Shown: positions 16,469-38,803, counted from the first letter of the stretch. The stretch: DNA of 64,000 bases from an uncultured Pseudomonadales bacterium (GCA_964635905.1 CAZWPK010000001.1:352293-416292), one strand, 5' to 3'. Numbers and translations: made by a program. Notes: generated from the sequence alone by a model not told the origin.

Positions 16469-16470
16469 AG

Positions 16471-21177: not shown

Positions 21178-21258
21178 CACATCAGCGCATCTGATTACAA
21201 TTTTTAAAAACCTCAATGTTTTTAGTTTTTTATTTGAGATAGCGACTGATCTATTTTT

Positions 21259-21837: not shown

Positions 21838-21951
21838 AACGATAAGATTTTGTAATTTTCTATACTGTTTTCTCTTTCTACAATTATCGAGGGTCTTTCT
21901 TTTCTTTCAGACGGTATTACAATCAGAGTTAATTTGAGAGGAGAGGATTGT

Positions 21952-22284
21952 ATGACTGAGACACTGAAGCGAATAGAAGTACTCAAGTTTTTCGTTATCA
22001 TTGAAGGTCATCAGATACCCGCTCAATTGAGAGGCAATCAAGTTGCTGCTGAAAACGGCTCATTTTCCAATTCTAGACTCTACGATAGTGTCGAGAATGC
22101 TCAAAAGGCAGCCCGATCTTCGGCAAATGCAGCAAAAACAATTGAAATTCATGCTTATCTTGCAACACTAACGGCTGAAGAGAGAGCTCAACTTCCAAAG
22201 GGATTGCCATTGAGTTCGAAGTTAGATTCAACCCAAATTAATCTTGAGCATACTGGACTACGAGCAACAATTATCCGAAAATAA
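21952..22284 (+). CDS. Hypothetical protein.
   Basis: ATG at 21952 preceded by GAGAGGAGAGG (strong SD). No recognisable motif. Confidence 0.35.
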   Translation: MTETLKRIEVLKFFVIIEGHQIPAQLRGNQVAAENGSFSNSRLYDSVENAQKAARSSANAAKTIEIHAYLATLTAEERAQLPKGLPLSSKLDSTQINLEHTGLRATIIRK

Positions 22285-22331
22285 GGGGAAAATCTACGTA
22301 GCTTGGGGTATATATTGTTAGTAGGTTTCCA

Positions 22332-22934
22332 TTAATACAGTAGTGCTTCGCCAGAGCTGACCTTGGATTGTAGTGCATCTATATTCAGTAATCGAATTCG
22401 GTGTTGAGAAATTTCAATCAGCTTTTCCTGACGAAGATGGCTGAGTTCTCGGGTGACCGTTTCTCGGCTTAGCCCGGTAAGCTCTGCAAGTTGTTGGTGC
22501 GTCAACGCGATATGGATCGTTCTTTCATTGGAACTGTCTGGAAATCGCTCACTTAATATTAATAGCGTTTGTATTAACAACGATGCGGCATCTCCCTGCA
22601 TCAGTTTTTCGGTTTTTTGAAGCATTCCATGCAGACCGCTTAACAAGCGCAGCATCACAGAATACGCAACCGTTGGATCCGACTGTAAGTATTCCTTGAC
22701 CTTAGAAAGTGGAGCCTTAAATCCTTGACACTCCGTGACACAGACAAAGGCATAGGTGTTGGGAAGATCCAGGAGCCCATTCATCAAGGGAAAGAAGCTA
22801 CCCGGTTTAAAGAGATTGAGTGTCAACTCCTGACCTTTGGGGGTCGTAGCGATTTGCTTTACAATCCCATTCGTTAAGTAAAAGACTTGGGGTGTCGTCG
22901 TATGTGAGGTGATTAAGAGTTCAGTGGGTTGCAT
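22332..22934 (-). CDS. Crp/Fnr-family transcriptional regulator.
   Basis: cNMP-binding-like N-terminal domain. C-terminal HTH LTHQQLAELTGLSRETVTRELSHLRQEKLI. Confidence 0.7.
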   Translation of the reverse strand: MQPTELLITSHTTTPQVFYLTNGIVKQIATTPKGQELTLNLFKPGSFFPLMNGLLDLPNTYAFVCVTECQGFKAPLSKVKEYLQSDPTVAYSVMLRLLSGLHGMLQKTEKLMQGDAASLLIQTLLILSERFPDSSNERTIHIALTHQQLAELTGLSRETVTRELSHLRQEKLIEISQHRIRLLNIDALQSKVSSGEALLY

Positions 22935-23096
22935 CGTAAATGGTGCGAATTGCCCAAAAAATCATAGCAATGATGGGTTCTGGGAGTGCTTTAGTGACGA
23001 TGAGTGGGCCATGATTACTCTATAAACGTGGACAATACTACTCTGTGAGTTCTATCACGAAACTACGGTAAAAAAAAGACTATCCTACAACCGTAG

Positions 23097-23112
23097 ATCA
23101 ATCAAAATTGAT
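23097..23112. promoter_or_regulatory. Perfect 6-4-6 palindrome ATCAAT-caaa-ATTGAT in the divergent crp/fnr-ldh intergenic region. Candidate operator.
   Basis: Read directly from the sequence. It sits ~60 nt upstream of the ldh ATG (23174) and ~160 nt upstream of the regulator start. Confidence 0.4.
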
Positions 23113-23173
23113 TCTTCCGTTGGCTAAGAATATAGTAAAAGCATTCTTACTCTACCTACCGATAGGAACACCT

Positions 23174-24094
23174 ATGCAATGTGATTTACGAAAAGTAGCC
23201 ATTATTGGCGGAGGACATGTTGGGATTACTGCTGCATATGCCCTCCTGTTAACCCACACCGTCGATGAGTTGATTCTCGTCTCCCGGTCTCTGGAAAAGC
23301 TAGAGGGAGAAAAATTAGACCTAGAACATGGACTTTCTTTTCTGGAAGCGACTAAAGTGACGGCTACGACCGACTATGCAGCTCTCCAAAATGCCGATGT
23401 TGTGATCATCACTTCCGGAGTGGCACAAAAATCGGGACAAAGTCGCATGGACCTAGTGGAGGAGAACAAAGCCATCCTTGCGGAAATGGCACAACAGATC
23501 CTGCCCTACGTCCAAAACAGTGTGGTCGTTGTGGTCAGTAATCCCGTCGATGTGCTTACCTTCCATCTTGCCAAGGCCCTCGGATTACCAGAAGGACGAG
23601 TCTTTGGAACGGGAACGATGCTAGACACAGCCCGCTTTCGTTTCCATTTAAGTGAATTTTTGCACTTAAATCCGCGCAGTATTCATGCCTATATTTTAGG
23701 TGAGCATGGGGAGAGTGCTTTCCCTGCATTAGAGAGCGCCTCCGTGGGAGGTCAGCCACTTTCTGAGTTTCCGCACTACTCCAAAGAACAGGCTCTAGAA
23801 TCCTTCACCAAGACTCGGGAAGCCGCGGCAAGTATTATTAAGGCTAAAGGAGCGACCTATTACGCCATTGGCGTGGTGATTAGTCAGGTTGTCCGTACCA
23901 TTTTGTTAGATCAACGTTCCGTTCTCCCAGTCACCATATCCATTGAAAATTACTATGGAGAATCCGAGGTAGCTGTAAGTGTCCCCTGCATCGTGGGAAG
24001 AAATGGCGTACAGCAGATATTACGCGTGAACCTTTCGAGCGAGGAACAAGAACAATTCAAAAAATCGTGTGGAATTGTGCGATCGTTTATTTAA
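23174..24094 (+). CDS. ldh: L-lactate dehydrogenase.
   Basis: Rossmann KVAIIGGGHVGIT. Substrate loop GVAQKSGQSRMDL with Gln at the specificity position (LDH rather than MDH). Catalytic ILGEHGES. The track start 23108 is a TTG; the ATG is at 23174. Confidence 0.8.
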   Translation: MQCDLRKVAIIGGGHVGITAAYALLLTHTVDELILVSRSLEKLEGEKLDLEHGLSFLEATKVTATTDYAALQNADVVIITSGVAQKSGQSRMDLVEENKAILAEMAQQILPYVQNSVVVVVSNPVDVLTFHLAKALGLPEGRVFGTGTMLDTARFRFHLSEFLHLNPRSIHAYILGEHGESAFPALESASVGGQPLSEFPHYSKEQALESFTKTREAAASIIKAKGATYYAIGVVISQVVRTILLDQRSVLPVTISIENYYGESEVAVSVPCIVGRNGVQQILRVNLSSEEQEQFKKSCGIVRSFI

Positions 24095-24176
24095 TTGAAT
24101 ACATGCGAGTGAAAGCCATTGTACTCTTGAAATTGTTTGATAGACTTTAGGGCAGTACGACTAGAGGAGGAACCCT

Positions 24177-24422
24177 ATGGAATATCGCGCCTATTTTGAA
24201 ACGGGTACGAATGGGGAAACACGACATAACATAGAAGCAGAGAGTGCGGACGGATTGATGGAAGCCCTTACAGCGTTACTTGTGTCGCTCCAATTAGATA
24301 AAAACTACATCGAAGATATAGTGATTTGGACGCCAAACAGGGATCACTGTTTACTGGTTGAGCGTGACCCTCATGGGGTCATACTTGGCAGTTTTACCAA
24401 ACGTCCTATCCGATTGATTTAA
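24177..24422 (+). CDS. Small hypothetical protein.
   Basis: 81-aa ORF with SD GAGGAGG upstream. Confidence 0.35.
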   Translation: MEYRAYFETGTNGETRHNIEAESADGLMEALTALLVSLQLDKNYIEDIVIWTPNRDHCLLVERDPHGVILGSFTKRPIRLI

Positions 24423-24471
24423 CACCATGGGCTCCGTGGTACTTAAGAATTTCTGATCAATTACCCATTGC

Positions 24472-25581
24472 GTGTTTCGTTGTTTTTCCCTTCGTTCTTA
24501 CACTCCTGGTATAATAGATCCTCTGAATACTGGACTCTCTCACTCCTATGCCCTTCGGTCTAAACAGAAAACGAACATCCTTAGACCGTTGATCACTAGT
24601 GCCCTGAAAACGGGGCTCGTTCTTTTCATGGTGCTTTTGCCACTGCTCATCACGCGCTTTGAGAGTGTAACAAGTTGGATCCAACGCCTACAGTCTCCTA
24701 CTCCCGTGCGCGTTCACAAGAACTTTCCCATTACTTTACCAACCTGTACTGCCAAGTCGGGTTCCATTGTGTTTTCCTCCGATCGATCCGGGAATTACGA
24801 TCTATATATTCAAGAGTTATCGACTGGGATGATTACGAACAAAACGACTACCGCTTTTGATGAATTTAATCCGCAAGTGTCAACAGACGGAGCCAAACTT
24901 GTCTATTATGCGAATCGCTATGGAAATACCGATATCTTTTCGATGGAGATTGGAAGTGGAGCCTCATCGCAGTTAACCAGCGATCCATCCAGTGACTATG
25001 ATGCGACCTTTGCCTATAACGATCCTGATACCGTGGTCTTTAAATCAAATCGCGATGATGGGTTTGGAGATCTCTTTTCAATGTCAATTTCTGGAGAATT
25101 GCAAACGAATTTAACGCCCTTGCGAAAAACCTCGGAAGAGTGGAAACCGGAATTTATTTCTGAACACGTGATGGTCTTCTCCTCGCGCTTAAACCCGGCA
25201 AGTGGCAAAGATGTCTCTGATGAGCTGTTTACTTTGGATTTGAATACCAATGTCTATGTGCAGTTAACCTCCAATGACTATTCCGATTGGTATCCAGCCT
25301 ATGATCACACGAACAATACGTTTGTCTATGTGAGTAAAGGTCCCAACAACGATCAAGCTATTTTCCGGATGAATCCGGATGGAAGCGGGAAGAAACTGGT
25401 GATCGATCATCCAGGTGATGATGTGGATCCAAGTGTTGGAGAAAATGGGGATTTAATCTATCTGAATAACAAATCTGGAGATTGGGATATGCGGATCATT
25501 GATGTGCACGGCAATGAATGTATCGTGAACAATGATGATTCCGACGAGCTGTCCCCAGAGTTTATTCCCACTACAAAGTAA
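24472..25581 (+). CDS. TolB-like (PD40/WD40-like) beta-propeller repeat protein, membrane anchored.
   Basis: Repeated blocks SSDRSGNYDLY..., YYANRYGNTDIF..., FKSNRDDGFGDLF... and YVSKGPNNDQAIFRMN typical of TolB/PD40 repeats. N-terminal TM. Confidence 0.55.
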   Translation: MFRCFSLRSYTPGIIDPLNTGLSHSYALRSKQKTNILRPLITSALKTGLVLFMVLLPLLITRFESVTSWIQRLQSPTPVRVHKNFPITLPTCTAKSGSIVFSSDRSGNYDLYIQELSTGMITNKTTTAFDEFNPQVSTDGAKLVYYANRYGNTDIFSMEIGSGASSQLTSDPSSDYDATFAYNDPDTVVFKSNRDDGFGDLFSMSISGELQTNLTPLRKTSEEWKPEFISEHVMVFSSRLNPASGKDVSDELFTLDLNTNVYVQLTSNDYSDWYPAYDHTNNTFVYVSKGPNNDQAIFRMNPDGSGKKLVIDHPGDDVDPSVGENGDLIYLNNKSGDWDMRIIDVHGNECIVNNDDSDELSPEFIPTTK

Positions 25582-27438
25582 TTAGCGTTTCAGCACGTCT
25601 TGCAGTGCCCGAACCGCAGAGAGTGGTTCATAGTTTTCTCCAAAGGGTAAACCATCACCGATTTCTAAGGTTTGATTGCGTCCGAGTCCGGACGTGGAAC
25701 TGTATTTCTCTGTGATTCCCCACATGCTAAACGCGATACAATTTGGTACCTGGATACAGGCTGACAGTGTGTTTGAAAACTGGCTTGCTTGCTGTGAACT
25801 ATCATGGCCATATGCATCCAATTCGGAAACCCGCACGTAGAGTTTTTTGTTGTATTTATTGCCAAGTGTTACCACCTGCTCCATATGAGACTGTAAGGTT
25901 TTGGTCGAAATTTCATCACCACGTTCATAGACATGCGCCTGGAATCCGAGTCCATCGATCGGGACATCTTTTTTCAGAAGTTCCTCGATCAGTGTGAGCA
26001 TCCCAGTGAAGCGGTCACTCTCTTCTTCCAGTCCCCATTCGTTGATAAAGAGTAAAGCTTGGGGATCACTGGCTTTAGCTGCGCGCAGTGCTTTTTCGAT
26101 ATAGGAGGGACCCATCGCCTGATGCCAAAGATGATTGCGATAGGTTACCTCTCCATCCCAGTAGTCTTCATCGAGGGGCTCATTAATCACATCCCAGGTT
26201 TTAATCGTTCCCTTATAGTGGGAGACCACGGTTTTAATATGGGAGAGCATCATTTCTTCACGTTTTTCTTTGGGAGTTTGCTGCATCCAGGCTGGGTTGG
26301 CTTCCCCAAACACGAGCGTGTGTCCATGCACGGCAATTCCGGCTCGTTTTGCGACGGTGACGATAGCATCGGCTTCGCCAAATGCATATTGATCTGGGGC
26401 CGGATGTACAAATTGGGCTTTGAGTGCATTTTCCGTGGTAAAGACCCCATACCATCCCTGAGTAGCCAACTCAAAATACCACGGATCCGAGACTAATGGG
26501 CCCAATGCGACTGCCGCTCCGATCTTTAAACTGGATGACTTCTTTTTGGCAAGTTCTTGCCAGGATTCAGCAATTTTTGCCGGCAGTTGTAGGGTGTCTG
26601 GGGTGTTGACGATCGTTGTAGTGGAGCCCTGTAGTGGGGTCAAGGAAAATTGGGTCAAGCGAAGTTCGCCACCTGGTGTGGGAGTATCTAGACCGAACCA
26701 TAGTTTCCCATTGGAGAGTAACGACTTTGTGGGTACGGAGCCGACGGTGTTGCCATTGAGTGTAATCGCGATGGTTTGTGCATTCGTCTCCACCGAGAGT
26801 TCTGCGGTGCTAGTGGGTGGTACCGAAAAGGTCGTTTGGGTGGGTCGATTCCTTGCGCCATCGTACTGAGCTAGGCGAAGTGAGCCAGCATTCAATTCTA
26901 CGACCAGTGCTGGTTCCCAAAACAAAAACTCGTCATAGATTCGAGGAGGTCTTCCGTACAACGATAATCGCCAGGCGTTGGTGGTGGTGATTTTTGCGGT
27001 GATTTTGAAATCACCGGCTAGTTTTAATTGCGGTCCAAATAAAGCGATGGCCGGATTTTGGACACCCGGTGTTCCATCTTGTTCTACGATGGAGCGACCC
27101 GTGTGTTTGACGATGAGTGTTGCTCCCTCTCTGGAAGAGCCAGGCAGTGAGGTCCAATCGCGACCGGATAGGAGGTCGGTTGGGGATTGTTGAACCACTA
27201 CTGTTTTGGGTTGTTGCGTTGCTGCTGGTGACGCCGTGATCGTGGGTGTGGGGCTAGGAGTGATCGCGGTGGCACTACTGCTCGCACTTGCGCTCGCGTC
27301 ATCTGCCAACGGGGTTGTGGGTGGGAGTCGTTTCACTCCAATCAACGAGAGACAGATCATCGACAACGAGACGATCTGGTGCCGGAGAGCATCGAGGGCG
27401 GGAACAACGGTCTGACTAAATGATGTATCCATAGGCAT
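25582..27438 (-). CDS. Secreted GH10 endo-beta-1,4-xylanase with an N-terminal Thr/Pro linker and a putative binding module.
   Basis: GH10 blocks WDVINEP (acid/base Glu), FINEWGLEE and VSELD (nucleophile Glu). TM/signal plus PT-linker. Confidence 0.7.
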   Translation of the reverse strand: MPMDTSFSQTVVPALDALRHQIVSLSMICLSLIGVKRLPPTTPLADDASASASSSATAITPSPTPTITASPAATQQPKTVVVQQSPTDLLSGRDWTSLPGSSREGATLIVKHTGRSIVEQDGTPGVQNPAIALFGPQLKLAGDFKITAKITTTNAWRLSLYGRPPRIYDEFLFWEPALVVELNAGSLRLAQYDGARNRPTQTTFSVPPTSTAELSVETNAQTIAITLNGNTVGSVPTKSLLSNGKLWFGLDTPTPGGELRLTQFSLTPLQGSTTTIVNTPDTLQLPAKIAESWQELAKKKSSSLKIGAAVALGPLVSDPWYFELATQGWYGVFTTENALKAQFVHPAPDQYAFGEADAIVTVAKRAGIAVHGHTLVFGEANPAWMQQTPKEKREEMMLSHIKTVVSHYKGTIKTWDVINEPLDEDYWDGEVTYRNHLWHQAMGPSYIEKALRAAKASDPQALLFINEWGLEEESDRFTGMLTLIEELLKKDVPIDGLGFQAHVYERGDEISTKTLQSHMEQVVTLGNKYNKKLYVRVSELDAYGHDSSQQASQFSNTLSACIQVPNCIAFSMWGITEKYSSTSGLGRNQTLEIGDGLPFGENYEPLSAVRALQDVLKR

Positions 27439-28771: not shown

Positions 28772-29428
28772 GTGTCTAAGGTAATATTATCTCAGGCTAC
28801 AGGCTTAGGAAGTTTTATGGATGTATCTACAATTTCTGCAACTACGTCCGCAGTAGCACAATTGACCAGCAGGACTCAAGGTTATGGTGCAATTGAGATT
28901 TCTGCTTTTCTCATTTCTTCCGGATTTTTATTTACTTTAGTCAAACTAATTTTTGTGTTGGGGAAAAATCAAAGAAGCTTTGAAGATTTAAAAGAAAGCG
29001 TTAATAAATTGACCCCAGTGGTGACGAGATTAAATAGTTGTGTTCAAGAAATACAGTCAGTCATGAAAAACAGATATAAAACTCTCACCCTTATGCAGGA
29101 AACTATGGACATGTATGGAATTGCAAATAGCCCAATCGTTTTGAAAGAAGAATTTAAACACTATATTCTGGAATCAGGACTTTCAAATCAAATTGAAGAG
29201 AATAAGCCAAAAATTATTGAGTGGCTAAAAAAGAAAAATCCTATAACAGGGCTTGATGCACAAAATTTCCTTATGGATTTTGTCGTCTCCGATAAGATTG
29301 ATAAGTATTTGGACACTAGGGAATTCAAAAAATTACTGTATGACAGTGGAAAAACTGCGAAGGATTACTATTTTATTTTAGCAATTTATTTGTTCGAGGT
29401 AATAATTCCAGAAGTAATTGAAGAATAA
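28772..29428 (+). CDS. Hypothetical membrane protein encoded in an AT-rich segment.
   Basis: 218-aa ORF (GTG at 28772; ATG at 28817). One TM helix, Lys/Glu-rich. Local GC is visibly lower (~30%) than in the flanking genes. Confidence 0.35.
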   Translation: MSKVILSQATGLGSFMDVSTISATTSAVAQLTSRTQGYGAIEISAFLISSGFLFTLVKLIFVLGKNQRSFEDLKESVNKLTPVVTRLNSCVQEIQSVMKNRYKTLTLMQETMDMYGIANSPIVLKEEFKHYILESGLSNQIEENKPKIIEWLKKKNPITGLDAQNFLMDFVVSDKIDKYLDTREFKKLLYDSGKTAKDYYFILAIYLFEVIIPEVIEE

Positions 29429-30866: not shown

Positions 30867-31250
30867 ATGGGAATTTTGCATGGGTTGCTTGGAAATGCAT
30901 CCGAAGTCGATATTGATCATGTTGAACGAGAACTGCTTCCACTGCTTGCTCCAGCGGAAGATGTGGAGAAAGCGTTTCGCTTAATTCGCGATTTATTTAT
31001 CTTCACCAATAAACGATTAATTCTTATAGACAAACAAGGACTTTCTGGAAAGAAAACGGAATATCATTCCATCCCCTATCGCAGTATCGCGCATTTTTCT
31101 GTGGAATCAGCGGGACATTTTGACCTAGATTCAGAGCTCAAAATTTGGGTTAAAGGGATGTCAAGTCCGCTCATTAAAACATTTCGAAATGGTTCGAATA
31201 TCGTGGGGGTTCAACAAGCTCTGGCAACGTACATGTTTAACTTGGGGTAA
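30867..31250 (+). CDS. Bacterial PH-domain (YokE-like) protein.
   Basis: Pattern LIRDLFIFTNKRLILIDKQGLSGKKTEYHSIPYRSI...DLDSELKIWV matches bPH/GRAM-like domains. Confidence 0.45.
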   Translation: MGILHGLLGNASEVDIDHVERELLPLLAPAEDVEKAFRLIRDLFIFTNKRLILIDKQGLSGKKTEYHSIPYRSIAHFSVESAGHFDLDSELKIWVKGMSSPLIKTFRNGSNIVGVQQALATYMFNLG

Positions 31251-31444
31251 CATGGAAGAAACCATACACAAAGACATGCAGTTAGAGAATATAGAAGAGA
31301 AACTCTCGTTTATAAAATGGAATAGTGTGTAGCATTGCGGGAATTTCTTTCTCAATTTTTGTGCAATTCCTCTACGCAATACAACCGGATGTTGACCATC
31401 TTACCAACATATGAAAATCAACTACAAGTGCTTAATACTGGGGA

Positions 31445-32602
31445 CTAGTTTCGATCGTGTCCAAGTGAGGCATTCATGCGTTGAAGTTGACGAATATCTT
31501 TCTGGAGAACTGTCCATTTTTCAGGGATGATGACTCCTTCTCTACGTAGATACACAAGTACCCGCTTCACAATCTCTGACTTGCTTCCTCCCTTTACTAG
31601 TTCTTGAGCTAATATAGTATAAATATTTGCTTTAAGCGCTATTCTTTTTCGACGATTGATTGATCTGTTAATTGAGAGATTGAACAAATATTCAAGGTAA
31701 GCATTTGCTCGTTGTTCTGTATATTCCAGTCCTCTGATTAATTTAAAATGTTGTGATTCTTTTTCCGAGAATTCACTAATATCTGGAATAAAACTTAAAT
31801 CCAACATGTACAATTTCCCCGTTGGTTTTCCGTCCTCTAACTCAACTTGAAATTGGCCAGGATGGATATCCGTATGAATATAATACGTTCCATGACGTAT
31901 TGGATGTTCAAGCATCTGAATCGTCGCTCTCTCGATAAGCCTTAATGAGTTTGTTACGATTGCTTGATCCCCAGATAATGCATACTGGCGCAATGTACTA
32001 CCATTAACCCATTCCTCCATCTTTATTTTTGGAACTCCACTATATACAAATTCTGGAATAGCAAGTTCTATGTTTGGTAGTGTGACAGAGGATAAATGAG
32101 TTCTAAGTTCCGATCGTTGGCCGTACTGCTCTACGGCATTAATGTCGGCAACACACCACGTTGCAATATCCGCAAATAATCCACTGCTAATCTGGATATC
32201 ACGGATTAATGAAGGATTTTTTTTGACTCGAGGGCGATGACGCAGTTCCGCAACAACAGTATTTATTTCCTGTAACGATTCGCTGATACGAGCTTCCGCA
32301 TTTGGGACTAAAACTTTAATTGCTAATTCTCTAAATGGGACGGTCTGCATGTCGGATGCCGTAAGTGTCGCGCGATATACTCCAGTTAATGAACCTCCTG
32401 CTCCCGTAGCATAAAATCCTTCTAATGACTTGGCAGAGATCTCCAGCCTTTGAAGGCTGGAGGTGAATGCCTGCCCGGAGCGAAGCGGAGGTACAATGTC
32501 ATGATTGATGAGAGAATATAAAACAGGAGCCTCCACAAAACATAGACTGCTAGTACATTTGGTGTGGTGCCCGAAGTATCGACGACGGGTATTGATAGGC
32601 AA
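31445..32602 (-). CDS. ABC1/UbiB-like (APH-like) atypical protein kinase, apparently 5'-truncated or fused by the IS200 insertion.
   Basis: N-lobe GAGGSLTGVYRATL...ELAIKVLVPN. Catalytic-loop-like IHTDIHPGQFQV and LDLSFI. The first ~55 codons of the ORF are antisense to the IS200 left end and tnpA start. No start codon exists between the IS and the conserved kinase N-lobe. Low GC. Confidence 0.45.
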   Translation of the reverse strand: MPINTRRRYFGHHTKCTSSLCFVEAPVLYSLINHDIVPPLRSGQAFTSSLQRLEISAKSLEGFYATGAGGSLTGVYRATLTASDMQTVPFRELAIKVLVPNAEARISESLQEINTVVAELRHRPRVKKNPSLIRDIQISSGLFADIATWCVADINAVEQYGQRSELRTHLSSVTLPNIELAIPEFVYSGVPKIKMEEWVNGSTLRQYALSGDQAIVTNSLRLIERATIQMLEHPIRHGTYYIHTDIHPGQFQVELEDGKPTGKLYMLDLSFIPDISEFSEKESQHFKLIRGLEYTEQRANAYLEYLFNLSINRSINRRKRIALKANIYTILAQELVKGGSKSEIVKRVLVYLRREGVIIPEKWTVLQKDIRQLQRMNASLGHDRN

Positions 32603-32955
32603 AGTAGCCGAACGGTTGAAAGAACTGTTTGAACAATGTTGTCAGATGAATGAATGGGATATTGTAGAGCTGAATGTGCAGAGGGATCACGTTCACCTGT
32701 TAATACAGATCAATCCACGGAACTCAGTAGCAGAGGTTATGCAACGATTGAAAGGTGGGAGTAGTAGAGTGATCCGCATGGAATATCCAGAACTAGAAGA
32801 GTTTTTGTGGGGGGATAGCTTTTGGTGTGATGGCTACTTTGCCGAGAGTGTTGGAACAGTGAACCAGACCATCATCCAAAACTATATTAAAAATCAACAT
32901 CAATCATGAGGTAGGAGTAAAATCCCCGCTCTTCAGAGCGGGGATTACATTAATC
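32430..32955 (+). mobile_element. IS200/IS605-family insertion sequence (tnpA only). Ends are approximate.
   Basis: Y1/HUH transposase gene flanked by a left-end hairpin (ctccagcctttgaaggctggag, 32441..32462), a GGAGCGAAGCGGAG motif, and a perfect right-end hairpin atccccgctcttcagagcggggat (32922..32945). Confidence 0.6.
32508..32909 (+). CDS. tnpA: IS200/IS605-family transposase TnpA (HUH Y1).
   Basis: HRLLVHLVWCPKYRRRVL, RDHVHLLIQINP (HuH), SFWCDGYFAESVG (catalytic Tyr region). The track start 32505 is a TTG; the ATG is at 32508. Confidence 0.85.
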   Translation: MREYKTGASTKHRLLVHLVWCPKYRRRVLIGKVAERLKELFEQCCQMNEWDIVELNVQRDHVHLLIQINPRNSVAEVMQRLKGGSSRVIRMEYPELEEFLWGDSFWCDGYFAESVGTVNQTIIQNYIKNQHQS

Positions 32956-35900
32956 TGTGCCAAACTTCTTTTAAGGTCGGTGCTGCATTCTTCCCCAAGG
33001 CTTCTCTACGAAACGATCGCATCGCGGTGTATTTAAGTTGTCCCCGAACGCTATCAAAGGAACTTTGTAAAGCCTCTTCATATTCTTTTGCAAGATTATG
33101 TGCGACTGTTGCATTTTGCTTGTACCGAACACCCATTGGACCTTTTGAATCGGCAAGAAGAATCATGCTTTCAATCGGAGTATAGCGCTTTGTTTGTGTA
33201 TTTCGCTGTCCTGATCTAAACGAGTGAAGCAGACGTTCTTTTTGAGCTTTGAAATCTTCAATTTCAATACTTTGTCCAACAGTAGTTTCACTCGGATTAA
33301 AATCCAAAATTCTTGTTGCAATCTCAACTCCTAATGTGGCTCCTCTGTCCTCAGTATCAAAGAAGACAATTGGAAGTTCATTTTCATCATTTTCAGTACG
33401 CAAATCTTCTTGCAGTTGTTCCAGATCTTGGCGAACTTCCCGTTCAAAATACATGAAATTGGAAAGATCGAACTGATTTCCACCTACAAACTCCGTGTTT
33501 TTTCCAATCCGATCCGCCGCAGCTGTGTTATCCCCTCGCTTATTTGGTTGAATAAATAGTTGATTTCGTAAAAGACGCATACAGATATCCCCAAGATTTG
33601 TGGGGTGAATCGTTAATGTTTCGTCGTCATGTTTATCAACGGAAAGGATACAAAAGAGTAGATCTTCTACCAATTCATTTGCTGAGGGATCTTTAGATGG
33701 CTCAATCGCTTTACTAAGAACCAGATGATATAGCTTTGTTCGACCTTCTTGAGTTGTAAGTAGACCATTAGGGGCAAATAGCATTCGTCGCAGAAGGTAA
33801 TCGATTTCAGGCTGTGTTAGGGAAGTATAAAAACTGTTAACAAACGTATCGAATGACCTGTAAGAATGGATATCACCCAATAGATATGGATGACCAGTAT
33901 CGTCGAGCATGATTTTTACGTCCCGATTTGAATGGACCGATAGAATCACAGAATGGATCCAAAATGGTGCGAGTAGCTCTCGTAGTTTTGAATCACTACC
34001 CGTGTCCATAGCTGCTTCAAACAGCTCAATTGCATGGTTTCCTAAGAAATAGTCGAACCTCTCATCGGTAGTAGCTAATAAGGTGATTTTTTGTTCTCCT
34101 GTTCGCGTAATGGAATCAATGTTGCGTTGAAATAATGCGTCAAAGCGTTCAAATTCTTCTTTACTATTCATTAATTGTTCTTGTACATAATCCAGAACAT
34201 GAATATTTACTTTACTGTTTTCGAAGAGATAATCAAGAAAAGCAATTGCTTGGTCAAATGTCATCAATTTGACCATGATCATTTCAAACTTGTATTGATA
34301 GTATTCTGTCTCTCGTCTATTTAGAAGTATGGGGAGTAATTCATAAACCTCCCACAACGAATGCAAACTATGCTCATCCAGTTCAACTCTTTTTAGTGCA
34401 TCGATCATCGTACTAAGCAATGGGCCAAGAAAATTTTGTTGGGTGGGTGATTTTCCAATCAGTGTCTCTTCATCGGATTTTCCAAATGCAATAGATGCGA
34501 CACGGCTAATCTGTGTATACAATCTGGAGATTGTAGGATTTTGTTGTAGCACAAATTGGACGTACTCATCTCGAAGAGTAATCAGAATTGGATGAGCATA
34601 GAGTCCATCTAGGGCTGCTGAAGCCGACAGTTCATTACTTGAGCGGTAATTTGCGCTGCGCTTTAACTCCTCTAAGATCGTCCCTAACAGCAATACTCTC
34701 CCAGCAGTTGAAAGTCGAAACGGTTCTACCTTGTCTAAAATGGATCGACATGCCTGTTCAAAATCTGAAGGATCTGGAAGACTGCGTACAAAATCGAATA
34801 CATTTGCGATATAACCAAAACATTCTAGATCATATCTATTCACTCTCAGCGGTTCAGAATGATGTAGAACGGTAATCGTGAACTGTTCTTCTGATGGATT
34901 TGTTTCTGTAGGAATTTCGAACTCTTCAAAAATTTCTGAATAGAGTTGTATTAACCGGGTGTCCTGCGGAATTCTAGTATCAATAAAGGAAGAATCTGGA
35001 GAACAGAATAACGCATGAAGCTCATCTACTGCATACATAGAACCAGTTGCGTGAAGATGCGTTTGAGGTAAATAAGATCTTAAGTGGTCAATGGTGAAAA
35101 AATTTGTAGATTGATATACCGATGCAATATCCCCCGGTTGTATTCCCTCCTGTAATGCCAAATGATAGTCGGACAGAGAAGCGTCCACTCTGGTGAGTGC
35201 TTGAATTAAATGATGTTCAGTTCGAGTTTGGACAAAGGGATCATTCAATGATCTGCTAATGGATCGATAGTATACCTGTACAATCGATCCAATACTCTGA
35301 CTGAAGTCGGCGATCAAACTTCCATAGTTTCTACTTCGACGTAAATGTTTGGTAGTTTCGTGCACTTTTACAAATTGTAAGATGATGGGGAGCAACAATG
35401 TTTCCTCTTGTGAATAGAGATAGTCTTTTGCTTGTTCAAAGTCATTTGATTGAAGTGTTTTTAACTTGATAGTTTGTATTTCTTGAGCCTGAACGATCAT
35501 CGGTTCGACCGTGTGTTTCTGTAATAACTCAGGAATACCGTATGCTTTTTGTCTTCCATTCCGAACCTTAGCAGTTAGAGTCGATAAATAACCTGTAAAC
35601 TCAGTTAGTAAAATATTCCCATCTTGGTCTAAGAAGCAGTCTTGAAATGATGGAAGTAGTAATAACTCATCTAAAATAGAATTCCAGGATTCATCTCCTG
35701 AGCTTTTCAGAGTTTCCCAAAGATGAATTAAAAGAGATCTGGGGTTACTCACAACACTTCGTGTTCTGTGATTTCGGCGAAACTGATGTGCGAATTCAAA
35801 AAATGCTACAAATCTTTCTGGTGTATCAATGCTTTGTAGGAATCGTTGGTGAATATCAATTCCGTTGACAAGATCTAGAGTTTCTGAGTTAGATTTAGAC

Positions 35901-36985
35901 TGCTGTTTTGGTGAATAAAAATTGATAACTGCATCATAAGATGCAAAGGTGATATACAAGCTCCATGTTTTTTCAGGTTCCGATGCAACGAGGACTGTCT
36001 CATCTACGATTCCTTCAATGATTTTTTGCAATTTACTAATCTGATGCTTTATCGTCTTTAGTTCATTTGCATCTGTTAGTTGAGATGAATCAAAGAGCAG
36101 TTGTCTAAGCAATCGATTGAAGAGTGACATTAGCGTAGAAAGGGAGAAAAACGGTAGAAGTTCCTGGATCGCGGGTTCATTATTTGTCGAGATTGCCGTA
36201 AGCAACTGCTTGATACGGCTATCTTTTTCCTCAAGATGTTCAAGTACCCTTGGTTTCGGTGTCGGTTCTTGCTGTGAATGTTCAAAATCATGAAGCTGAG
36301 CTAGGTATCCTTGCCAACTCATGCGATCATACAGGGAGCCATGTGCGAAGTCAGAATTATTATTTCCTGGATTAATAAAGAGTTCAAGTGTGCTTCTGTA
36401 TTCACTCGCTCGGTACCCAGCCTGATCTACTCGAAATGGACTAATTGTTTCGGCTTCCCATTCATGGATTCGTGGGAGAGAAGCAGCCGTGATAGAGTCT
36501 TCAATATCGTGAGTCAAACTTTCCAGGTCATATTGCTTCAAGCCATGCAATTGTTGGACATGTGCTCCTTCATGAGCGCCTATACTTGCAATCTTATCTT
36601 CCGAATTCAACCGATTCATCATCGCTGTAGAGACAAACAATTCTGTTCCCAATGCATAGGCGAATTCTTCATTCGACTTACAAAGCCAAATATTATCTGG
36701 AAGTTGTTTCGCTGAGTCCAACACTCCTAACCCTGACTTACCTTCATAGATGATTCGTTTTAGCTCTTTTACCTCTGGGGATTCCGGATCATACGTTTCG
36801 TAAATTTCCAAAAAGTACTTAATTGCTTTCTTGCATTCTTTCACATACTTTTCCATTGCGTTCACTCGAAGTTCTTCAAGGTAACGTTGATACGCATCCG
36901 ATTGGCGTGCAACAGGTGTCCATTCTCGGTTCTTGTGGTGGATTGACGAAGATTCTCTAGGTGAAATTTCGTGTACAACTGCCAT
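32945..36985 (-). CDS. Giant (1,346 aa) cytoplasmic protein with a single HExxH zincin-like motif and otherwise unknown function. Low GC.
   Basis: Uninterrupted ORF. Motif IGAHEGAHVQQLHG near residue 140. No signal peptide, TM or P-loop. GC is noticeably lower than in neighbouring housekeeping genes. The stop codon abuts the IS200 right-end hairpin. Confidence 0.5.
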   Translation of the reverse strand: MAVVHEISPRESSSIHHKNREWTPVARQSDAYQRYLEELRVNAMEKYVKECKKAIKYFLEIYETYDPESPEVKELKRIIYEGKSGLGVLDSAKQLPDNIWLCKSNEEFAYALGTELFVSTAMMNRLNSEDKIASIGAHEGAHVQQLHGLKQYDLESLTHDIEDSITAASLPRIHEWEAETISPFRVDQAGYRASEYRSTLELFINPGNNNSDFAHGSLYDRMSWQGYLAQLHDFEHSQQEPTPKPRVLEHLEEKDSRIKQLLTAISTNNEPAIQELLPFFSLSTLMSLFNRLLRQLLFDSSQLTDANELKTIKHQISKLQKIIEGIVDETVLVASEPEKTWSLYITFASYDAVINFYSPKQQSKSNSETLDLVNGIDIHQRFLQSIDTPERFVAFFEFAHQFRRNHRTRSVVSNPRSLLIHLWETLKSSGDESWNSILDELLLLPSFQDCFLDQDGNILLTEFTGYLSTLTAKVRNGRQKAYGIPELLQKHTVEPMIVQAQEIQTIKLKTLQSNDFEQAKDYLYSQEETLLLPIILQFVKVHETTKHLRRSRNYGSLIADFSQSIGSIVQVYYRSISRSLNDPFVQTRTEHHLIQALTRVDASLSDYHLALQEGIQPGDIASVYQSTNFFTIDHLRSYLPQTHLHATGSMYAVDELHALFCSPDSSFIDTRIPQDTRLIQLYSEIFEEFEIPTETNPSEEQFTITVLHHSEPLRVNRYDLECFGYIANVFDFVRSLPDPSDFEQACRSILDKVEPFRLSTAGRVLLLGTILEELKRSANYRSSNELSASAALDGLYAHPILITLRDEYVQFVLQQNPTISRLYTQISRVASIAFGKSDEETLIGKSPTQQNFLGPLLSTMIDALKRVELDEHSLHSLWEVYELLPILLNRRETEYYQYKFEMIMVKLMTFDQAIAFLDYLFENSKVNIHVLDYVQEQLMNSKEEFERFDALFQRNIDSITRTGEQKITLLATTDERFDYFLGNHAIELFEAAMDTGSDSKLRELLAPFWIHSVILSVHSNRDVKIMLDDTGHPYLLGDIHSYRSFDTFVNSFYTSLTQPEIDYLLRRMLFAPNGLLTTQEGRTKLYHLVLSKAIEPSKDPSANELVEDLLFCILSVDKHDDETLTIHPTNLGDICMRLLRNQLFIQPNKRGDNTAAADRIGKNTEFVGGNQFDLSNFMYFEREVRQDLEQLQEDLRTENDENELPIVFFDTEDRGATLGVEIATRILDFNPSETTVGQSIEIEDFKAQKERLLHSFRSGQRNTQTKRYTPIESMILLADSKGPMGVRYKQNATVAHNLAKEYEEALQSSFDSVRGQLKYTAMRSFRREALGKNAAPTLKEVWHRLM

Positions 36986-37033
36986 AGTTGTAAGCTCTAA
37001 AAAAAGTATTATAGGGTAACACTGGCATAAAGT

Positions 37034-38803
37034 CTACTCCAGAGACAGGATAGAAGAGGTATTCACAATGTCATTTGGTGTTGCCCACCCGCGCTGTGCA
37101 TTAAAGATTCCGTAGTGCATCATTGCCATGCCATCTACATGATGAGCATCGGTATTAATAATGAATTTCACTCCTGCTATCTTTGCGTCACGAATGAGGG
37201 GAGCCGGAAGATCAGTGCGATCGGGACCGCTGTTAATCTCCATCCAAATATCGTTTTCACCACAGAAGGCAAAGATTGCATTCCAGTCGGCATCGATTCC
37301 ATCGCGCGACTCTAAGATGCGACCGGTTGGATGTCCCATAAAACGTACTTTGGGATGGGAGAGGGCTTTTAAAATTCTAGCGGTAGCTGTTTTGCGATCC
37401 TGACGAAACTGCGAATGCAAGGATGCAATCACATAATCAAGTTCATCGATCGCTTCTTCTTCCAGCGCCAAATTTCCATCGGGCAGAATATCTATTTCAA
37501 GCCCTTTATAGACTTGAATGGTTTGTTTCTTTCCCTTAAAAAACCGGGCGACTATTTCATCGATAGCAATATTGCGCTCTTTGACACAGGTAAGGCGCTC
37601 TGCTGCTGTCAACCCGGTACGCTTGGGATTATGATCAGAAAAGCCGATGTAGGAATACCCTAATTCTTTTGCCCGTAACAAGAGATCATCGATGGTACTT
37701 CGACCGGAATCATGACTACTGGGAAACGGCAAATTGGTATGGATATGCACATCCCCTTTGATCATTGGAAGTGTCACGAGGTTTGGCAGTGTGTTGGAAG
37801 TTGCCTTAACGATTTCTCCACTGTCTTCGCGTAGCATCGGTGGAATCCATTCCATTCCCAGCTCTTTATACAGGAGTGCTTCAGTGGCATAGGTGTGGAC
37901 TTTTCCGTCTTTCTCAATACCCCGCTCAGAGAGTGACCATCCTTTTTTGACAGCGATCGTTCGCAACGCAATATTGTGCATTTTGTTTCCGGTGTAGTGT
38001 TGCAGCATGGAACCCCAGGCTGCAGGGTCGCTTGTTTTACAGTCCACCTGCCAGCCGGTGGCGTGGATGAAGGTGAATTGTTTTGCCCCTCTTCCGATTA
38101 ACCGATTAATTCCTGGATAAGTTGCCAGATGATCAAAGACGATAGCACTATCTTTCGTGGATATGGCAATATCGATGTCCCCAACCGTGGGTGATTTTCG
38201 ACGCAGACTTCCTAAAGGTTCTGCAGCAAGTACTACCGGACAGGAGGAAATAAACGCAACTACATCACCGGCGATTTGTTCTGCGATGGGAAGCAAGAGT
38301 CGTGCTTGGGACTTCTCTCGGGTGTGTTCAATTGCCGACAAAATGCGTGCCTGCGAGACTGCAGAAAAGCCCTCCAAAGCAGCAATGCGATTTTCTGTGG
38401 CAGCTTGTTTAACCTGCTCGACTGCAGATTCTGCAGACGTTAGATTGAGTTGGGTGACCAGTTTTAGGGCAGTTTTGGGACCGATCCCCTGAATGGGGAG
38501 TAAGGCAAAGAATCCTTGAGGAACAGTGTGCAGCAGGTTCTCAAAATGTTCCACCTTCCCTTCCAAAAACAAGGTGTGTAAATCCCCGGCAATTGCTTTC
38601 CCTACCCCCGGGATGGCATCCAGTGCCTCGTCATTGGTCCAAATGTCTTGGATGGGAATAGAATACTGCTCAATACTATTGGCGGCATTCTCAAACGCTT
38701 TAATCTTAAAGATATTCTCTCCATTGAGTGCATAGATTGCGGCAACATTGCGAAGTAACGTGGCTACTTGTGCGTTAGAAAAAGAGATTGCTGGTTTGTG
38801 CAT
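37034..38803 (-). CDS. polX: DNA polymerase X family protein (Pol beta-like polymerase domain plus C-terminal PHP phosphoesterase).
   Basis: HhH motifs IPGVGKAIAG and IQGIGPKTA. Pol-beta palm GSLRRKSPTVGDIDIAI. PHP His clusters (GDVHIHT, HSQFRQ, INTDAHH). Confidence 0.85.
   Translation of the reverse strand: MHKPAISFSNAQVATLLRNVAAIYALNGENIFKIKAFENAANSIEQYSIPIQDIWTNDEALDAIPGVGKAIAGDLHTLFLEGKVEHFENLLHTVPQGFFALLPIQGIGPKTALKLVTQLNLTSAESAVEQVKQAATENRIAALEGFSAVSQARILSAIEHTREKSQARLLLPIAEQIAGDVVAFISSCPVVLAAEPLGSLRRKSPTVGDIDIAISTKDSAIVFDHLATYPGINRLIGRGAKQFTFIHATGWQVDCKTSDPAAWGSMLQHYTGNKMHNIALRTIAVKKGWSLSERGIEKDGKVHTYATEALLYKELGMEWIPPMLREDSGEIVKATSNTLPNLVTLPMIKGDVHIHTNLPFPSSHDSGRSTIDDLLLRAKELGYSYIGFSDHNPKRTGLTAAERLTCVKERNIAIDEIVARFFKGKKQTIQVYKGLEIDILPDGNLALEEEAIDELDYVIASLHSQFRQDRKTATARILKALSHPKVRFMGHPTGRILESRDGIDADWNAIFAFCGENDIWMEINSGPDRTDLPAPLIRDAKIAGVKFIINTDAHHVDGMAMMHYGIFNAQRGWATPNDIVNTSSILSLE

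What the first reader, a model, noticed from the sequence alone, without database searches (positions are those of the whole stretch)
31250..37000. Low-GC island: a 1,346-aa HExxH giant protein and a kinase-like gene split by an IS200 insertion; possible ancestral operon or fusion
Both the giant ORF (32945..36985) and the ABC1/APH-like kinase gene (31445..~32430) are on the minus strand and have markedly lower GC than the flanking polX, hisS and zwf genes. An IS200-family element sits exactly between them. The giant's stop codon abuts the IS right-end hairpin. The kinase ORF has no start codon between the IS left end and its conserved N-lobe, and its current start lies inside the IS, antisense to tnpA. 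Note also that 32947-32602 = 345 nt, which is divisible by 3, so the two ORFs share a reading frame. This suggests the IS inserted into a single transcription unit, perhaps even a single longer ORF, encoding a giant protein with a C-terminal or partner kinase. The giant protein has only a zincin-like HEGAHVQQLH motif and no other recognisable domain. This looks like an acquired effector or defence-type module rather than housekeeping.
Basis: partly seen in the sequence, partly recalled or inferred. Interest (0 to 1): 0.75.

Follow-up and report, generated by a model that had tools for sequence, protein, structure and literature searches.

The report
IS200 element splits giant protease–kinase gene
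A very small mobile DNA element has inserted into one long bacterial gene, so it now reads as a "giant protein" plus a separate "kinase"; the insertion is ordinary, but the broken gene belongs to an unnamed conserved family that joins a metalloprotease domain to a UbiB-type kinase-like domain.

Summary
The 1,346-aa ORF (32945..36985, minus strand) and the "kinase" ORF (31445..32602, minus strand) are two pieces of one 1,670-codon gene. A 528-bp IS200/IS605-family element (32427..32954) interrupts it.

I fixed the element's ends independently from seven related elements in metagenomes. The giant's stop codon lies inside the IS right end. The kinase piece has no start codon of its own. In-silico excision joins the two pieces in frame.

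About 36 homologues of 1,400–1,800 aa or more carry the same architecture in one ORF, and 47 of 52 homologues align straight through the junction. The IS sits inside a UbiB/ABC1-type domain, between its KxGQ element and its nucleotide-binding loop (hhalign versus E. coli UbiB; AlphaFold2 model; COQ8A is the top structural match). The N-terminus is an M48-type zincin.

The "acquired effector or defence island" idea is not supported. No defence model matches, homologues sit among housekeeping genes, and they too are lower in GC than their flanks.

Verdict: an ordinary IS-inactivated gene, in an undescribed protease–scaffold–kinase family of moderate interest.

The parts
32955..36985 (-). 5' fragment of the disrupted gene: native codons 1-1343 plus the first two bases of codon 1344 (M48-type zincin, variable helical region, conserved helical scaffold, KxGQ part of the UbiB-type domain)
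   Evidence: ORF. Right-end boundary of the IS at 32954. Homology to full-length relatives.
31445..32426 (-). 3' fragment of the disrupted gene: last base of codon 1344, codons 1345-1670 and the native stop (kinase-like core: nucleotide-binding loop, catalytic loop, C-lobe)
   Evidence: Pfam ABC1 31.5 bits against a cutoff of 22.9. Excision. No start codon of its own before Met-26.
32427..32954 (+). IS200/IS605-family insertion sequence, 528 bp, tnpA only
   Evidence: Ends defined by comparison with 7 related elements (alignments A1 and A4). The same boundary rule restores host ORFs in L012 and L014.
32420..32426 (+). Target sequence TTCTAAT flanking the IS left end; part of the host gene, reading ATTAGAA (R-L-E) on the coding strand
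   Evidence: A (T)TCTAAT motif lies 6-7 nt before GCAGAGATC in all related elements.
32441..32462 (+). Left-end subterminal hairpin (CTCCAGCC-TTTGAA-GGCTGGAG; an extended imperfect stem spans 32432-32471)
   Evidence: Conserved in position, with compensatory sequence changes, in relatives.
32505..32909 (+). tnpA, a Y1 HUH transposase (134 aa from TTG, 133 aa from ATG 32508); HUH motif 'HVH' and C-terminal 'YIKNQ' are present
32921..32946 (+). Right-end subterminal hairpin (12-bp perfect stem). On the minus strand it is followed by a T-run and scores as terminator-like
   Evidence: (z = -5.3).
32945..32947 (-). The stop codon (TAA) that ends the 1,346-aa ORF; it is supplied by the IS right end, not by the host gene
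   Evidence: with the IS...WHRLM*; without it...WHRLEGFYATGAGG....
36560..36574 (-). HEGAH (H138-E139-x-x-H142), the zincin motif; further conserved ligand and signature residues are E175/D179 (36449..36472) and HGSxxDR (36323..36343)
33098..33136 (-). KxGQ-equivalent element of the UbiB-type domain (MGVRYKQNATVAH; family consensus GVRFLQLxGQY), upstream of the IS
   Evidence: hhalign against E. coli UbiB pairs it with '[14 protein letters not shown]'. Coordinates.
32384..32410 (-). Nucleotide-binding glycine-rich loop (ATGAGGSLT), 5-13 residues downstream of the IS junction
31850..31882 (-). Catalytic loop YIHTDIHPGQF (family HSDxHxGN; UbiB FHADMHPGN); the metal-binding Asp lies in MLDLSF at 31790..31807
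37008..37036 (-). Best promoter-like match in the region (TAGACT-17-TATAAT, 10/12), just upstream of the gene's start codon at 36985
   Evidence: This is a consensus match only; promoter-like sites are not enriched over shuffles.

Best explanation
One gene of 1,670 codons on the minus strand (31445..36985 without the insert) has been interrupted by a 528-bp IS200/IS605-family insertion sequence (32427..32954; tnpA on the plus strand). The element inserted 3' of a TTCTAAT target, within codon 1344.

The gene encodes a soluble multidomain protein: an N-terminal M48-type zinc metalloprotease domain (~residues 60-250), a poorly conserved helical region, a conserved helical-repeat scaffold (~720-1270), and a C-terminal UbiB/ABC1-type atypical kinase-like domain (~1276-1670). 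The IS lies inside that last domain, between the KxGQ element and the nucleotide-binding loop.

Consequences of the insertion:
- The upstream reading frame runs 3 codons into the IS right end (R-L-M; R and L happen to equal the native residues) and stops at an IS-encoded TAA. This gives the 1,346-aa 'giant'.
- On that strand the right-end hairpin plus T-run looks like an intrinsic terminator.
- The remaining 326 codons have no start codon or promoter of their own. The annotated 'kinase gene' borrows a start inside the IS, antisense to tnpA.
- The kinase-like module is therefore inactivated and the locus is a split pseudogene.

Shown: the IS ends, the in-frame restoration, the homology of both pieces to single-ORF relatives, the domain identities, and the position of the junction within the fold.

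Inferred: loss of function, transcriptional polarity, and any biochemical role. My working guess for the role is a UbiB-type ATPase/kinase module that gates or targets the tethered M48 protease on a helical scaffold.
For: IS ends:
- Seven related elements (TnpA 60-78% identical) share the end architecture.
- Independent insertions diverge immediately after ...GATTnnnTTAAT on the right, and all carry (T)TCTAAT 6-7 nt before GCAGAGATC plus a hairpin on the left.
- This places the ends at 32427 and 32954, a length of 528 = 176 x 3.
- The same cutting rule opens a frame across both whole flanks of L012 (83 + 153 codons; that element is 547 bp, not a multiple of 3) and joins 442 + 77 codons in L014.
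- This architecture (target flanking the LE, subterminal hairpins, precise excision) is that described for IS608 (PMC5027513).

Excision: it yields one 1,670-aa ORF. Shifting the left boundary by +/-1 or 2 nt gives stops within 0-31 codons.

Homologues:
- Exhaustive phmmer with the kinase fragment finds 52 relatives. 36 of them are at least 1,384 aa, mostly with the domain at the extreme C-terminus.
- BLASTP of the repaired protein gives a single alignment block crossing the junction in 47 of 52. For P0007, residues 553-1658 align to 559-1633 (E=6e-116) and the N-terminal 56-301 to 41-288 (E=7e-41).
- The 11 nearest relatives have no relative indel within +/-15 residues of the junction.
- P0010 and P0009 carry precomputed Pfam M48 + ABC1 in one product.

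Domain spans the junction:
- hhalign of the family profile against E. coli UbiB residues 59-324 gives probability 96.8%, E=2.4e-10. The block starts 68 residues upstream of the junction at the KxGQ element.
- In the AlphaFold2 model (pLDDT 73.5, pTM 0.72) the junction falls between a helix and strand beta-1, at pLDDT 95-97.

M48: the family profile hits solved M48 peptidases (3c37 E=1.6e-21; BepA ~3e-14; also HtpX and Ste24p). HExxH, E175 and HGSxxDR are conserved.

Other points:
- The two fragments have the same composition (GC 0.396 and 0.399; GC3 0.32 and 0.30).
- There is no start codon before Met-26 in the 3' fragment.
- The IS right end is terminator-like on the minus strand.
- Both junctions appear in independent Logan contigs.
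Against: - No IS-free allele was observed. The exact repaired protein is absent from the 15-billion-protein collection, so the empty site is inferred.
- The conserved target means the left boundary cannot be fixed to the nucleotide by comparison alone. It rests on the symmetry with the right-end cleavage site (both end in TAAT), on ORF restoration in L012 and L014, and on the in-frame result here.
- Pfam's ABC1 model does not extend across the junction on its own (profile positions 38-219; score unchanged by adding the upstream part).
- The window's copy deviates at 15 of 55 family-conserved columns. These include the GQ of the KxGQ element and N->Q and R->L in the catalytic and Mg loops. The gene may therefore already have been diverging or decaying, or the subfamily may simply be divergent (P0016 has 12 deviations, P0007 has 8).
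- Nothing here measures expression. The 1,346-aa truncated product could retain protease or scaffold function.
- No biochemical function is known for any family member.
Confidence: 0.92

Rival explanations
1. Two separate genes (a giant HExxH protein and a partner kinase) in one operon, with the IS sitting in the intergenic spacer. The giant has a native stop and the kinase a native start.
For: As annotated, both ORFs are complete in the present sequence (NCBI calls a 363-aa kinase). Pfam ABC1 matches only the downstream ORF.
Against: The giant's stop codon and both candidate kinase starts lie inside the IS. Excision fuses the two ORFs in frame. 47 of 52 homologues align through the junction without a break, and 36 are single ORFs of at least 1,384 aa. 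UbiB homology and the predicted fold both span the junction.
Confidence: 0.02
2. The gene, split or not, is part of a recently acquired low-GC island that encodes a secreted effector or an anti-phage defence module.
For: The gene's GC is ~2 SD, and its GC3 ~3 SD, below the window's other genes. Two IS200-type elements and a serine recombinase lie within 27 kb. The protein is a singleton at more than 50% identity, and the family is rare (53 representatives among 1.84 billion).
Against: No PADLOC model matches the repaired protein or P0007/P0009; P0010 has one insignificant hit. There is no signal peptide or TM segment. Homologues lie between housekeeping genes (ClpP/RecR/ATPase; RF-1/Ddl/Mur ligase) with no conserved partners. 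In 4 of 5 homologue loci the gene is also lower in GC than its flanks (for example 0.336 against 0.435), so low GC is a trait of the gene family. The low-GC stretch is the gene itself, not a multi-gene island.
Confidence: 0.1
3. The insertion is a reversible switch. IS200/IS605 elements excise precisely, so the intact TnpA could restore the full-length gene in a subpopulation, giving on/off variation of the kinase module.
For: TnpA is full length with its HUH and Tyr motifs, and both subterminal hairpins and TAAT cleavage sites are intact. Precise excision with a sealed donor joint is the documented family mechanism (PMC5027513). Neither gene fragment has acquired a stop or frameshift.
Against: There is no sign of an empty-site allele. 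Both junctions assemble without alternative branches in the Logan contigs I could read, and the repaired protein is not on record. IS200-type elements are described as transposing very rarely (PMC4513863). Precise excision is a general property of the family, not evidence of a regulatory role here.
Confidence: 0.05
4. Assembly artefact: the IS was placed between two unrelated contig ends by misassembly.
For: The Logan assembly of the same run breaks inside the IS left end; the two contigs overlap by only 14 nt (32464-32477).
Against: One Logan contig runs from the bPH gene through the kinase fragment and 51 nt into the IS. The other runs from 38 nt inside the IS through tnpA and the right end into the giant gene. 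Both match the window exactly. The two flanks are halves of one conserved protein, which a chance misjoin would not produce.
Confidence: 0.01

Closest known systems
IS200/IS605 family, IS200 group (IS200 of Salmonella; IS608 as the mechanistic model)
   Same: A single Y1 HUH transposase gene. Subterminal hairpins instead of terminal inverted repeats. A short specific target that flanks only the left end. The cleavage site lies a few nt 3' of the right-end hairpin. There is a hairpin in the left end upstream of tnpA.
   Different: The element is much smaller: 528 bp (relatives 547-559 bp), against 707 bp for IS200, which PMC4513863 calls the smallest fully autonomous IS known. The target is (T)TCTAAT rather than IS608's TTAC. 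TnpA is at most 46% identical to anything in the plasmid collection. Transposition activity was not tested.
UbiB/ABC1 atypical kinase family (E. coli UbiB, human COQ8A/ADCK3, M. tuberculosis Rv3197)
   Different: It is the C-terminal domain of a ~1,600-aa soluble protein, not a ~450-550-aa membrane-associated stand-alone protein. There are no TM helices and no link to quinone-biosynthesis genes. The family consensus has LxGQ rather than KxGQ. The window's copy has lost the GQ and carries N->Q and R->L substitutions.
M48 zinc metallopeptidases (BepA, HtpX, Ste24, Oma1; plastoglobule PGM48)
   Same: HExxH, a downstream Glu, and an (S/T)H(P/G)xxxxR-like signature. The family profile matches solved M48 structures (3c37 E=1.6e-21; BepA ~3e-14).
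   Different: No membrane anchor or TPR domain. It is fused to ~1,400 further residues. The window's own copy scores below Pfam's threshold (17.8 against 20.3 bits).
Plastoglobule/cyanoglobule pairing of an M48 protease (PGM48/sll1280) with ABC1K kinases
   Same: The same two domain families are found together, co-localised on lipid droplets and co-expressed (PMC12223511; PMC8956952; bioRxiv 10.1101/2021.02.05.430006).
   Different: There they are separate proteins on a lipid monolayer in photosynthetic organisms. Here they are covalently fused in non-photosynthetic-looking genomic contexts. No functional equivalence has been shown.

Membership tests
IS200/IS605 insertion sequences | Encodes a Y1 HUH transposase (TnpA) with a HUH motif and a catalytic Tyr | tested here: met
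   Pfam Y1_Tnp E=1.9e-43 over profile positions 2-121 of 121. NCBIfam transpos_IS200 151.8 bits against a cutoff of 55. 'HVH' and 'YIKNQ' are visible in the sequence.
IS200/IS605 insertion sequences | Subterminal hairpins at both ends on the same strand; no terminal inverted repeats | tested here: met
   LE hairpin 32441-32462 and RE hairpin 32921-32946. Their positions are conserved, with compensatory sequence changes, in 7 relatives.
IS200/IS605 insertion sequences | Inserts 3' of a short specific target that flanks the left end only, without target duplication | tested here: met
   (T)TCTAAT is present at the LE flank of all 8 elements, while the RE flanks are unrelated. Excision by this rule restores ORFs in the window, L012 and L014.
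IS200/IS605 insertion sequences | Single-strand 'peel and paste' transposition with precise excision | not testable with these tools
   Mechanism known from IS608 and ISDra2 (PMC5027513). No empty-site allele was found.
UbiB/ABC1 atypical kinase family | Sequence match to the ABC1 domain model above the curated threshold | tested here: met
   PF03109 31.5 bits against 22.9. hhalign of the family profile against E. coli UbiB: probability 96.8%, E=2.4e-10. PDB profile hit 5yjz at 1.4e-7.
UbiB/ABC1 atypical kinase family | KxGQ element N-terminal to the kinase core | tested here: inconclusive
   The family consensus GVRFLQLxGQY aligns with UbiB's IKFGQ, so the element is present in the family, with L in place of K. 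The window's copy reads VRYKQNATVAH: R and the first Q are kept, but the GQ is lost.
UbiB/ABC1 atypical kinase family | Protein-kinase-like bilobal fold closest to COQ8A/ADCK3 | tested here: met
UbiB/ABC1 atypical kinase family | Catalytic loop HxDxHxGN and a metal-binding Asp | tested here: met
   H1528, D1530, H1532, G1534 and D1553 are conserved. The window has Q at the N position (as do P0005-P0007) and L at the family's R1554.
UbiB/ABC1 atypical kinase family | Stand-alone, membrane-associated protein of ~450-550 aa linked to prenylquinone metabolism | tested here: not met
   Here it is the C-terminal domain of proteins of ~1,500-1,800 aa. There are no TM segments and no quinone-pathway neighbours.
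M48 zinc metallopeptidases | HExxH plus a downstream acidic third ligand and the C-terminal (S/T)H(P/G)xxxxR signature | tested here: met
   H138, E139, H142, E175, D179, H215 and R221 are at least 90% conserved across 33 members and present in the window, except D179->E.
M48 zinc metallopeptidases | Significant match to M48 models or structures | tested here: met
   The window copy alone is below threshold (PF01435 17.8 against 20.3 bits). The family profile hits 3c37 at 1.6e-21 and BepA at ~3e-14. P0010 and P0009 have precomputed PF01435 hits.
M48 zinc metallopeptidases | Proteolytic activity | not testable with these tools
Known anti-phage defence systems (PADLOC-DB 2.0) | Match to any defence-protein model | tested here: not met
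   No hit for the repaired protein, P0007 or P0009. P0010 has only a 15.7-bit hit (E=0.002) to PD-T4-6.

The most novel reading that the evidence does not exclude
The broken gene is a member of a previously undescribed, conserved family of soluble ~1,600-aa proteins. In these proteins an M48 metalloprotease and a UbiB/ABC1-type kinase-like ATPase are permanently coupled through a helical-repeat scaffold. Read as a 'Rosetta stone' fusion, this would mean that M48 proteases and UbiB/ABC1 proteins work together directly, for example through nucleotide- or lipid-gated proteolysis. That would give a testable mechanism for their unexplained co-occurrence on plastoglobules and cyanoglobules, where PGM48/sll1280 accompanies ABC1K kinases.
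Probability: 0.25. Interest if true: 0.6.

Novelty: new variant of a known kind. Interest (0 to 1): 0.4.

Why it matters
For this genome, the result corrects the annotation. The "hypothetical 1,346-aa protein" and the "ABC1 kinase" (whose called start lies inside an IS, antisense to the transposase) are one IS-disrupted gene and should be annotated as a pseudogene or split gene.

More generally, it brings to light a rare family that no source names. I found 53 representatives among 1.84 billion protein clusters. The family combines an M48 protease, a helical scaffold and a UbiB-type domain in one soluble polypeptide. The UbiB family's biochemical role is still debated, and a natural fusion to a protease offers a concrete hypothesis about a partner activity.

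The IS itself is also of note. At 528 bp, with relatives at 547-559 bp, it is markedly smaller than IS200 (707 bp), which has been called the smallest autonomous IS.

Tried and rejected
- **Second IS copy.** None exists at the DNA level. The other IS200-type tnpA is 33% identical.
- **Genome-contig scan.** I spent the single scan on a 22-mer from the IS left end. The host genome is not among the representatives and all 9 hits were chance matches in high-GC genomes. This scan was wasted.
- **Word-indexed homologue searches.** Searches with the giant, with the kinase fragment and with the family profile each returned only the query's own fragments. Homologues appeared only with the exhaustive HMMER search.
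- **Plasmid collection.** TnpA relatives there are at most 46% identical and were useless for defining the ends.
- **Pfam across the junction.** I expected Pfam ABC1 to extend across the junction in the repaired protein. It did not. I treated my by-eye alignment as unconfirmed until hhalign against UbiB and the structure settled it.
- **Single-sequence AlphaFold2** of the repaired C-terminus gave pLDDT 36 and was discarded.
- afdb50 was not available. The Pfam scan of the 33-member alignment exceeded the size limit.
- **Naming and organism.** No source names any family member, and SRR8893623 appears in no paper searched. I did not identify the organism and make no claim about its lineage.
- **Sequence erosion.** The window copy has 15 deviations at 55 conserved columns, the joint maximum of 33 members, but its nearest relatives are also high. 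I judged this test inconclusive.
- **Guide/cleavage-site pairing.** I considered using the IS608 rules to fix the left boundary. I dropped this because I could not derive a clear pairing from the sequences.

Full report
**1. What is in the sequence**

ORF listing confirms a 1,346-aa ORF at 32945..36985 (-) and a 385-aa ORF at 31445..32602 (-), in the same frame. A 134-aa ORF at 32505..32909 (+) lies between them.
- The middle ORF is a full-length IS200-type Y1 transposase (Pfam Y1_Tnp E=1.9e-43; NCBIfam transpos_IS200 151.8 bits against a cutoff of 55).
- The downstream ORF matches Pfam ABC1 above threshold, but only from profile position 39 onward.
- The giant has a sub-threshold M48 match around HEGAH.
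- Both fragments have GC ~0.40 and GC3 0.30-0.32. The other 44 genes of the window average GC 0.452 +/- 0.027 and GC3 0.434 +/- 0.041.
- The window holds no second copy of this IS. A second IS200-type tnpA near 52.2-52.6 kb is only 33% identical in protein.

**2. Defining the IS ends**

The window offered no second copy, so I fetched relatives of TnpA from metagenome contigs (60-78% identity) and compared their flanks (alignments A1 and A4).
- **Right end.** All elements are conserved through a hairpin and '...GATTnnnTTAAT'. Independent insertions (for example L013 and L014, the same element at two sites) diverge at the next base. This puts the window's right end at 32954.
- **Left end.** Every element has (T)TCTAAT, then 6-7 element-specific bases, then GCAGAGATC, a hairpin and GTGAATGC. 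In this family the target flanks the left end and is not part of the element (IS608: PMC5027513). Both cleavage sites then end in TAAT. This puts the IS start at 32427.
- **Length.** The element is 528 bp, or 176 codons.
- **Check of the rule.** Excising the related elements by the same rule opens a frame across both entire flanks of L012 (83 + 153 codons; that element is 547 bp, so this is not a trivial frame coincidence) and joins 442 + 77 codons in L014.
- **Hairpins.** Both hairpins fold well as single-stranded DNA; the right end has z = -5.3.
- **Independent assembly.** Two Logan contigs of run SRR8893623 confirm both junctions. One ends at 32477, having crossed the left junction. The other starts at 32464 and crosses the right junction.

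**3. Consequences for the two ORFs**

The giant's TAA (32945-32947) lies 8 nt inside the IS. The native frame contributes codons 1-1343 and two bases of codon 1344, and the IS supplies '...A TTA ATG TAA'.

The downstream piece has no ATG, GTG or TTG between the left IS end and Met-26, which lies beyond the glycine loop. Both the ORF's TTG (32602) and NCBI's GTG (32536; 363-aa call) lie inside the IS, antisense to tnpA.

Deleting 32427..32954 gives one 1,670-aa ORF reading ...KEVWHR|LEGFYATGAGGSLTGVYRA.... Moving the left boundary by 1 or 2 nt gives stops within 0-31 codons.

**4. Homologues show the single ORF is the native state**

Word-indexed searches found nothing but the query's own fragments. 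The exhaustive HMMER search with the 326-aa downstream fragment found 52 relatives among 1.84 billion representatives. Of these, 36 are at least 1,384 aa, mostly 1,480-1,810 aa with the matched domain at the extreme C-terminus.

BLASTP of the repaired protein against them gives one alignment block across the junction in 47 of 52. For P0007:
- residues 553-1658 align to 559-1633 (E=6e-116);
- the N-terminal HExxH region, residues 56-301, aligns to 41-288 (E=7e-41).

In the family alignment, the 11 nearest relatives have no relative insertion or deletion within +/-15 residues of the junction. P0010 and P0009 carry precomputed Pfam hits to both Peptidase_M48 and ABC1 in one product.

**5. The IS is inside a domain, not a linker**

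Pfam's ABC1 model alone did not extend upstream of the junction, so I tested the point in two other ways.
- **Profile comparison.** hhalign of the family profile against E. coli UbiB aligns UbiB residues 59-324 in a single block (probability 96.8%, E=2.4e-10). The block starts 68 residues upstream of the junction. UbiB's '[20 protein letters not shown]' pairs with the family's 'GalGVRFLQLlGQY..ippEy'. The KxGQ element is a hallmark insert of ABC1 proteins (PMC8956952).
- **Structure.** An AlphaFold2 model of residues 471-1670, built with 49 homologues, has pLDDT 73.5 and pTM 0.72, and residues ~720-1670 are mostly at 80-97. The junction falls between a helix and the first strand of the N-lobe, in blocks at pLDDT 95-97.

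**6. The N-terminal domain**

The 33-member alignment conserves H138-E139-x-x-H142, E175/D179 and H215-G-S-x-x-D-R221. Its profile hits solved M48 peptidases (3c37 E=1.6e-21; BepA ~3e-14; HtpX; Ste24p). A hydropathy scan finds no TM segments or signal peptides in the repaired protein or in most relatives. The family therefore differs from classical membrane-bound M48 and UbiB proteins.

**7. Is it an acquired effector or defence island?**

I found no support for this.
- PADLOC has no significant match.
- Homologues lie among housekeeping genes, with no conserved neighbours.
- In 4 of 5 homologue loci the gene is also lower in GC than its flanks (L030 0.336 against 0.435; L031 0.328 against 0.387; L033 0.353 against 0.405; L034 0.485 against 0.504). 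Low GC therefore tracks the gene family.
- In the window, the low-GC stretch coincides with the gene itself.

I could not identify the organism. The host genome was absent from the genome collection I scanned, and no source provides names.

**8. State of the gene**

Neither fragment has an internal stop or frameshift, so the insertion is probably recent, or the 5' fragment is still under selection.
- The copy deviates at 15 of 55 family-conserved columns, the joint highest of 33 members. Its nearest relatives are also divergent, so this is inconclusive.
- The right-end hairpin with its T-run scores as a terminator on the gene's strand, and no promoter-like site precedes the 3' fragment. These are consensus matches only.
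- TnpA and both ends look intact, so precise excision (PMC5027513) could in principle restore the gene. No empty-site allele is on record.

**9. Comparison with what is known, and verdict**

The mobile element is a small member of the IS200 group. The event, an IS inactivating a gene, is commonplace. The disrupted gene combines three known modules (an M48 zincin, a helical-repeat scaffold and a UbiB/ABC1-type domain) in an architecture that no source names and that I did not find described in the literature searched.

M48 proteases and ABC1 kinases are known to co-reside and be co-expressed on plastoglobules and cyanoglobules (PMC12223511; PMC8956952; bioRxiv 10.1101/2021.02.05.430006). The fusion suggests, but does not show, a direct functional coupling.

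Overall:
- The core interpretation (one ORF split by the IS) is confirmed.
- The 'acquired effector or defence module' interpretation is not supported.
- Novelty is modest: a new variant of known kinds. Interest is 0.4.

Noticed in passing
window 32427..32954; L012-L016, L019, L026: This IS and its relatives are only 528-559 bp with an apparently complete tnpA and both ends. That is well below the 707 bp of IS200, which PMC4513863 calls the smallest fully autonomous IS known. Whether they are autonomous is untested.
   Followed up: partly
window ~52015..52640: A second, unrelated IS200-type tnpA (~52209..52638, +; 33% identical to the first). It is preceded by two tandem hairpins (52015-52060 and 52113-52165) whose loops share CATTGGAGCGAAGCGAG. 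The same GGAGCGAAGCG motif, which contains the GCGAAGC mini-hairpin sequence, sits in the left end of the first IS (32477-32487). The far end of Logan contig SRR8893623_173293 is calculated to fall here (~52028).
   Followed up: partly
L032:5023-9920 (NCBI GCA_044223895.1, JBGALL010000002.1): The nearest relative's copy of the gene is also broken. ORFs of 949, 61 and 639 aa are separated by a frameshift near family residue ~980-1000, a different place from the IS here. This is either an independent pseudogenisation or an assembly error.
   Followed up: partly
L034:12950-15454 (NCBI GCA_964583365.1): In P0009's locus the intact family gene is followed, overlapping by 4 nt on the same strand, by a separate 834-aa ORF with an APH (aminoglycoside phosphotransferase-like kinase) domain. 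P0009 is also the only member with a lipoprotein-like signal peptide.
   Followed up: no
L030, L031, L033, L034 (family gene against its flanks): The family gene is consistently lower in GC than the surrounding genome, by up to 10 percentage points in L030. This suggests a compositional trait of the gene, perhaps tied to its Lys/Asn/Glu/Ile-rich helical regions or to low expression.
   Followed up: partly
window 32464..32477: The two Logan contigs of SRR8893623 that cover the locus overlap by only 14 nt inside the IS left end, just 3' of the left-end hairpin, rather than joining. The cause is unknown; it could be a coverage drop at the hairpin, a variant, or a partial repeat elsewhere.
   Followed up: partly
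window 28772..29428 (+): A 218-aa ORF with the lowest GC in the window (0.333; GC3 0.30) and no convincing Pfam match. It is a more island-like outlier than the finding itself.
   Followed up: no
window 59346..61001 (-): A 551-aa large serine recombinase (Resolvase + Recombinase + Zn_ribbon_recom), possibly marking an integrated element near the end of the window.
   Followed up: no
window 14528..27438: A cluster of carbohydrate-active genes: GH81 (14528..16468), a GT2 cellulose-synthase-like gene (17253..18794) and GH10 (25582..27438). This is background on the organism's lifestyle and is unrelated to the finding.
   Followed up: no
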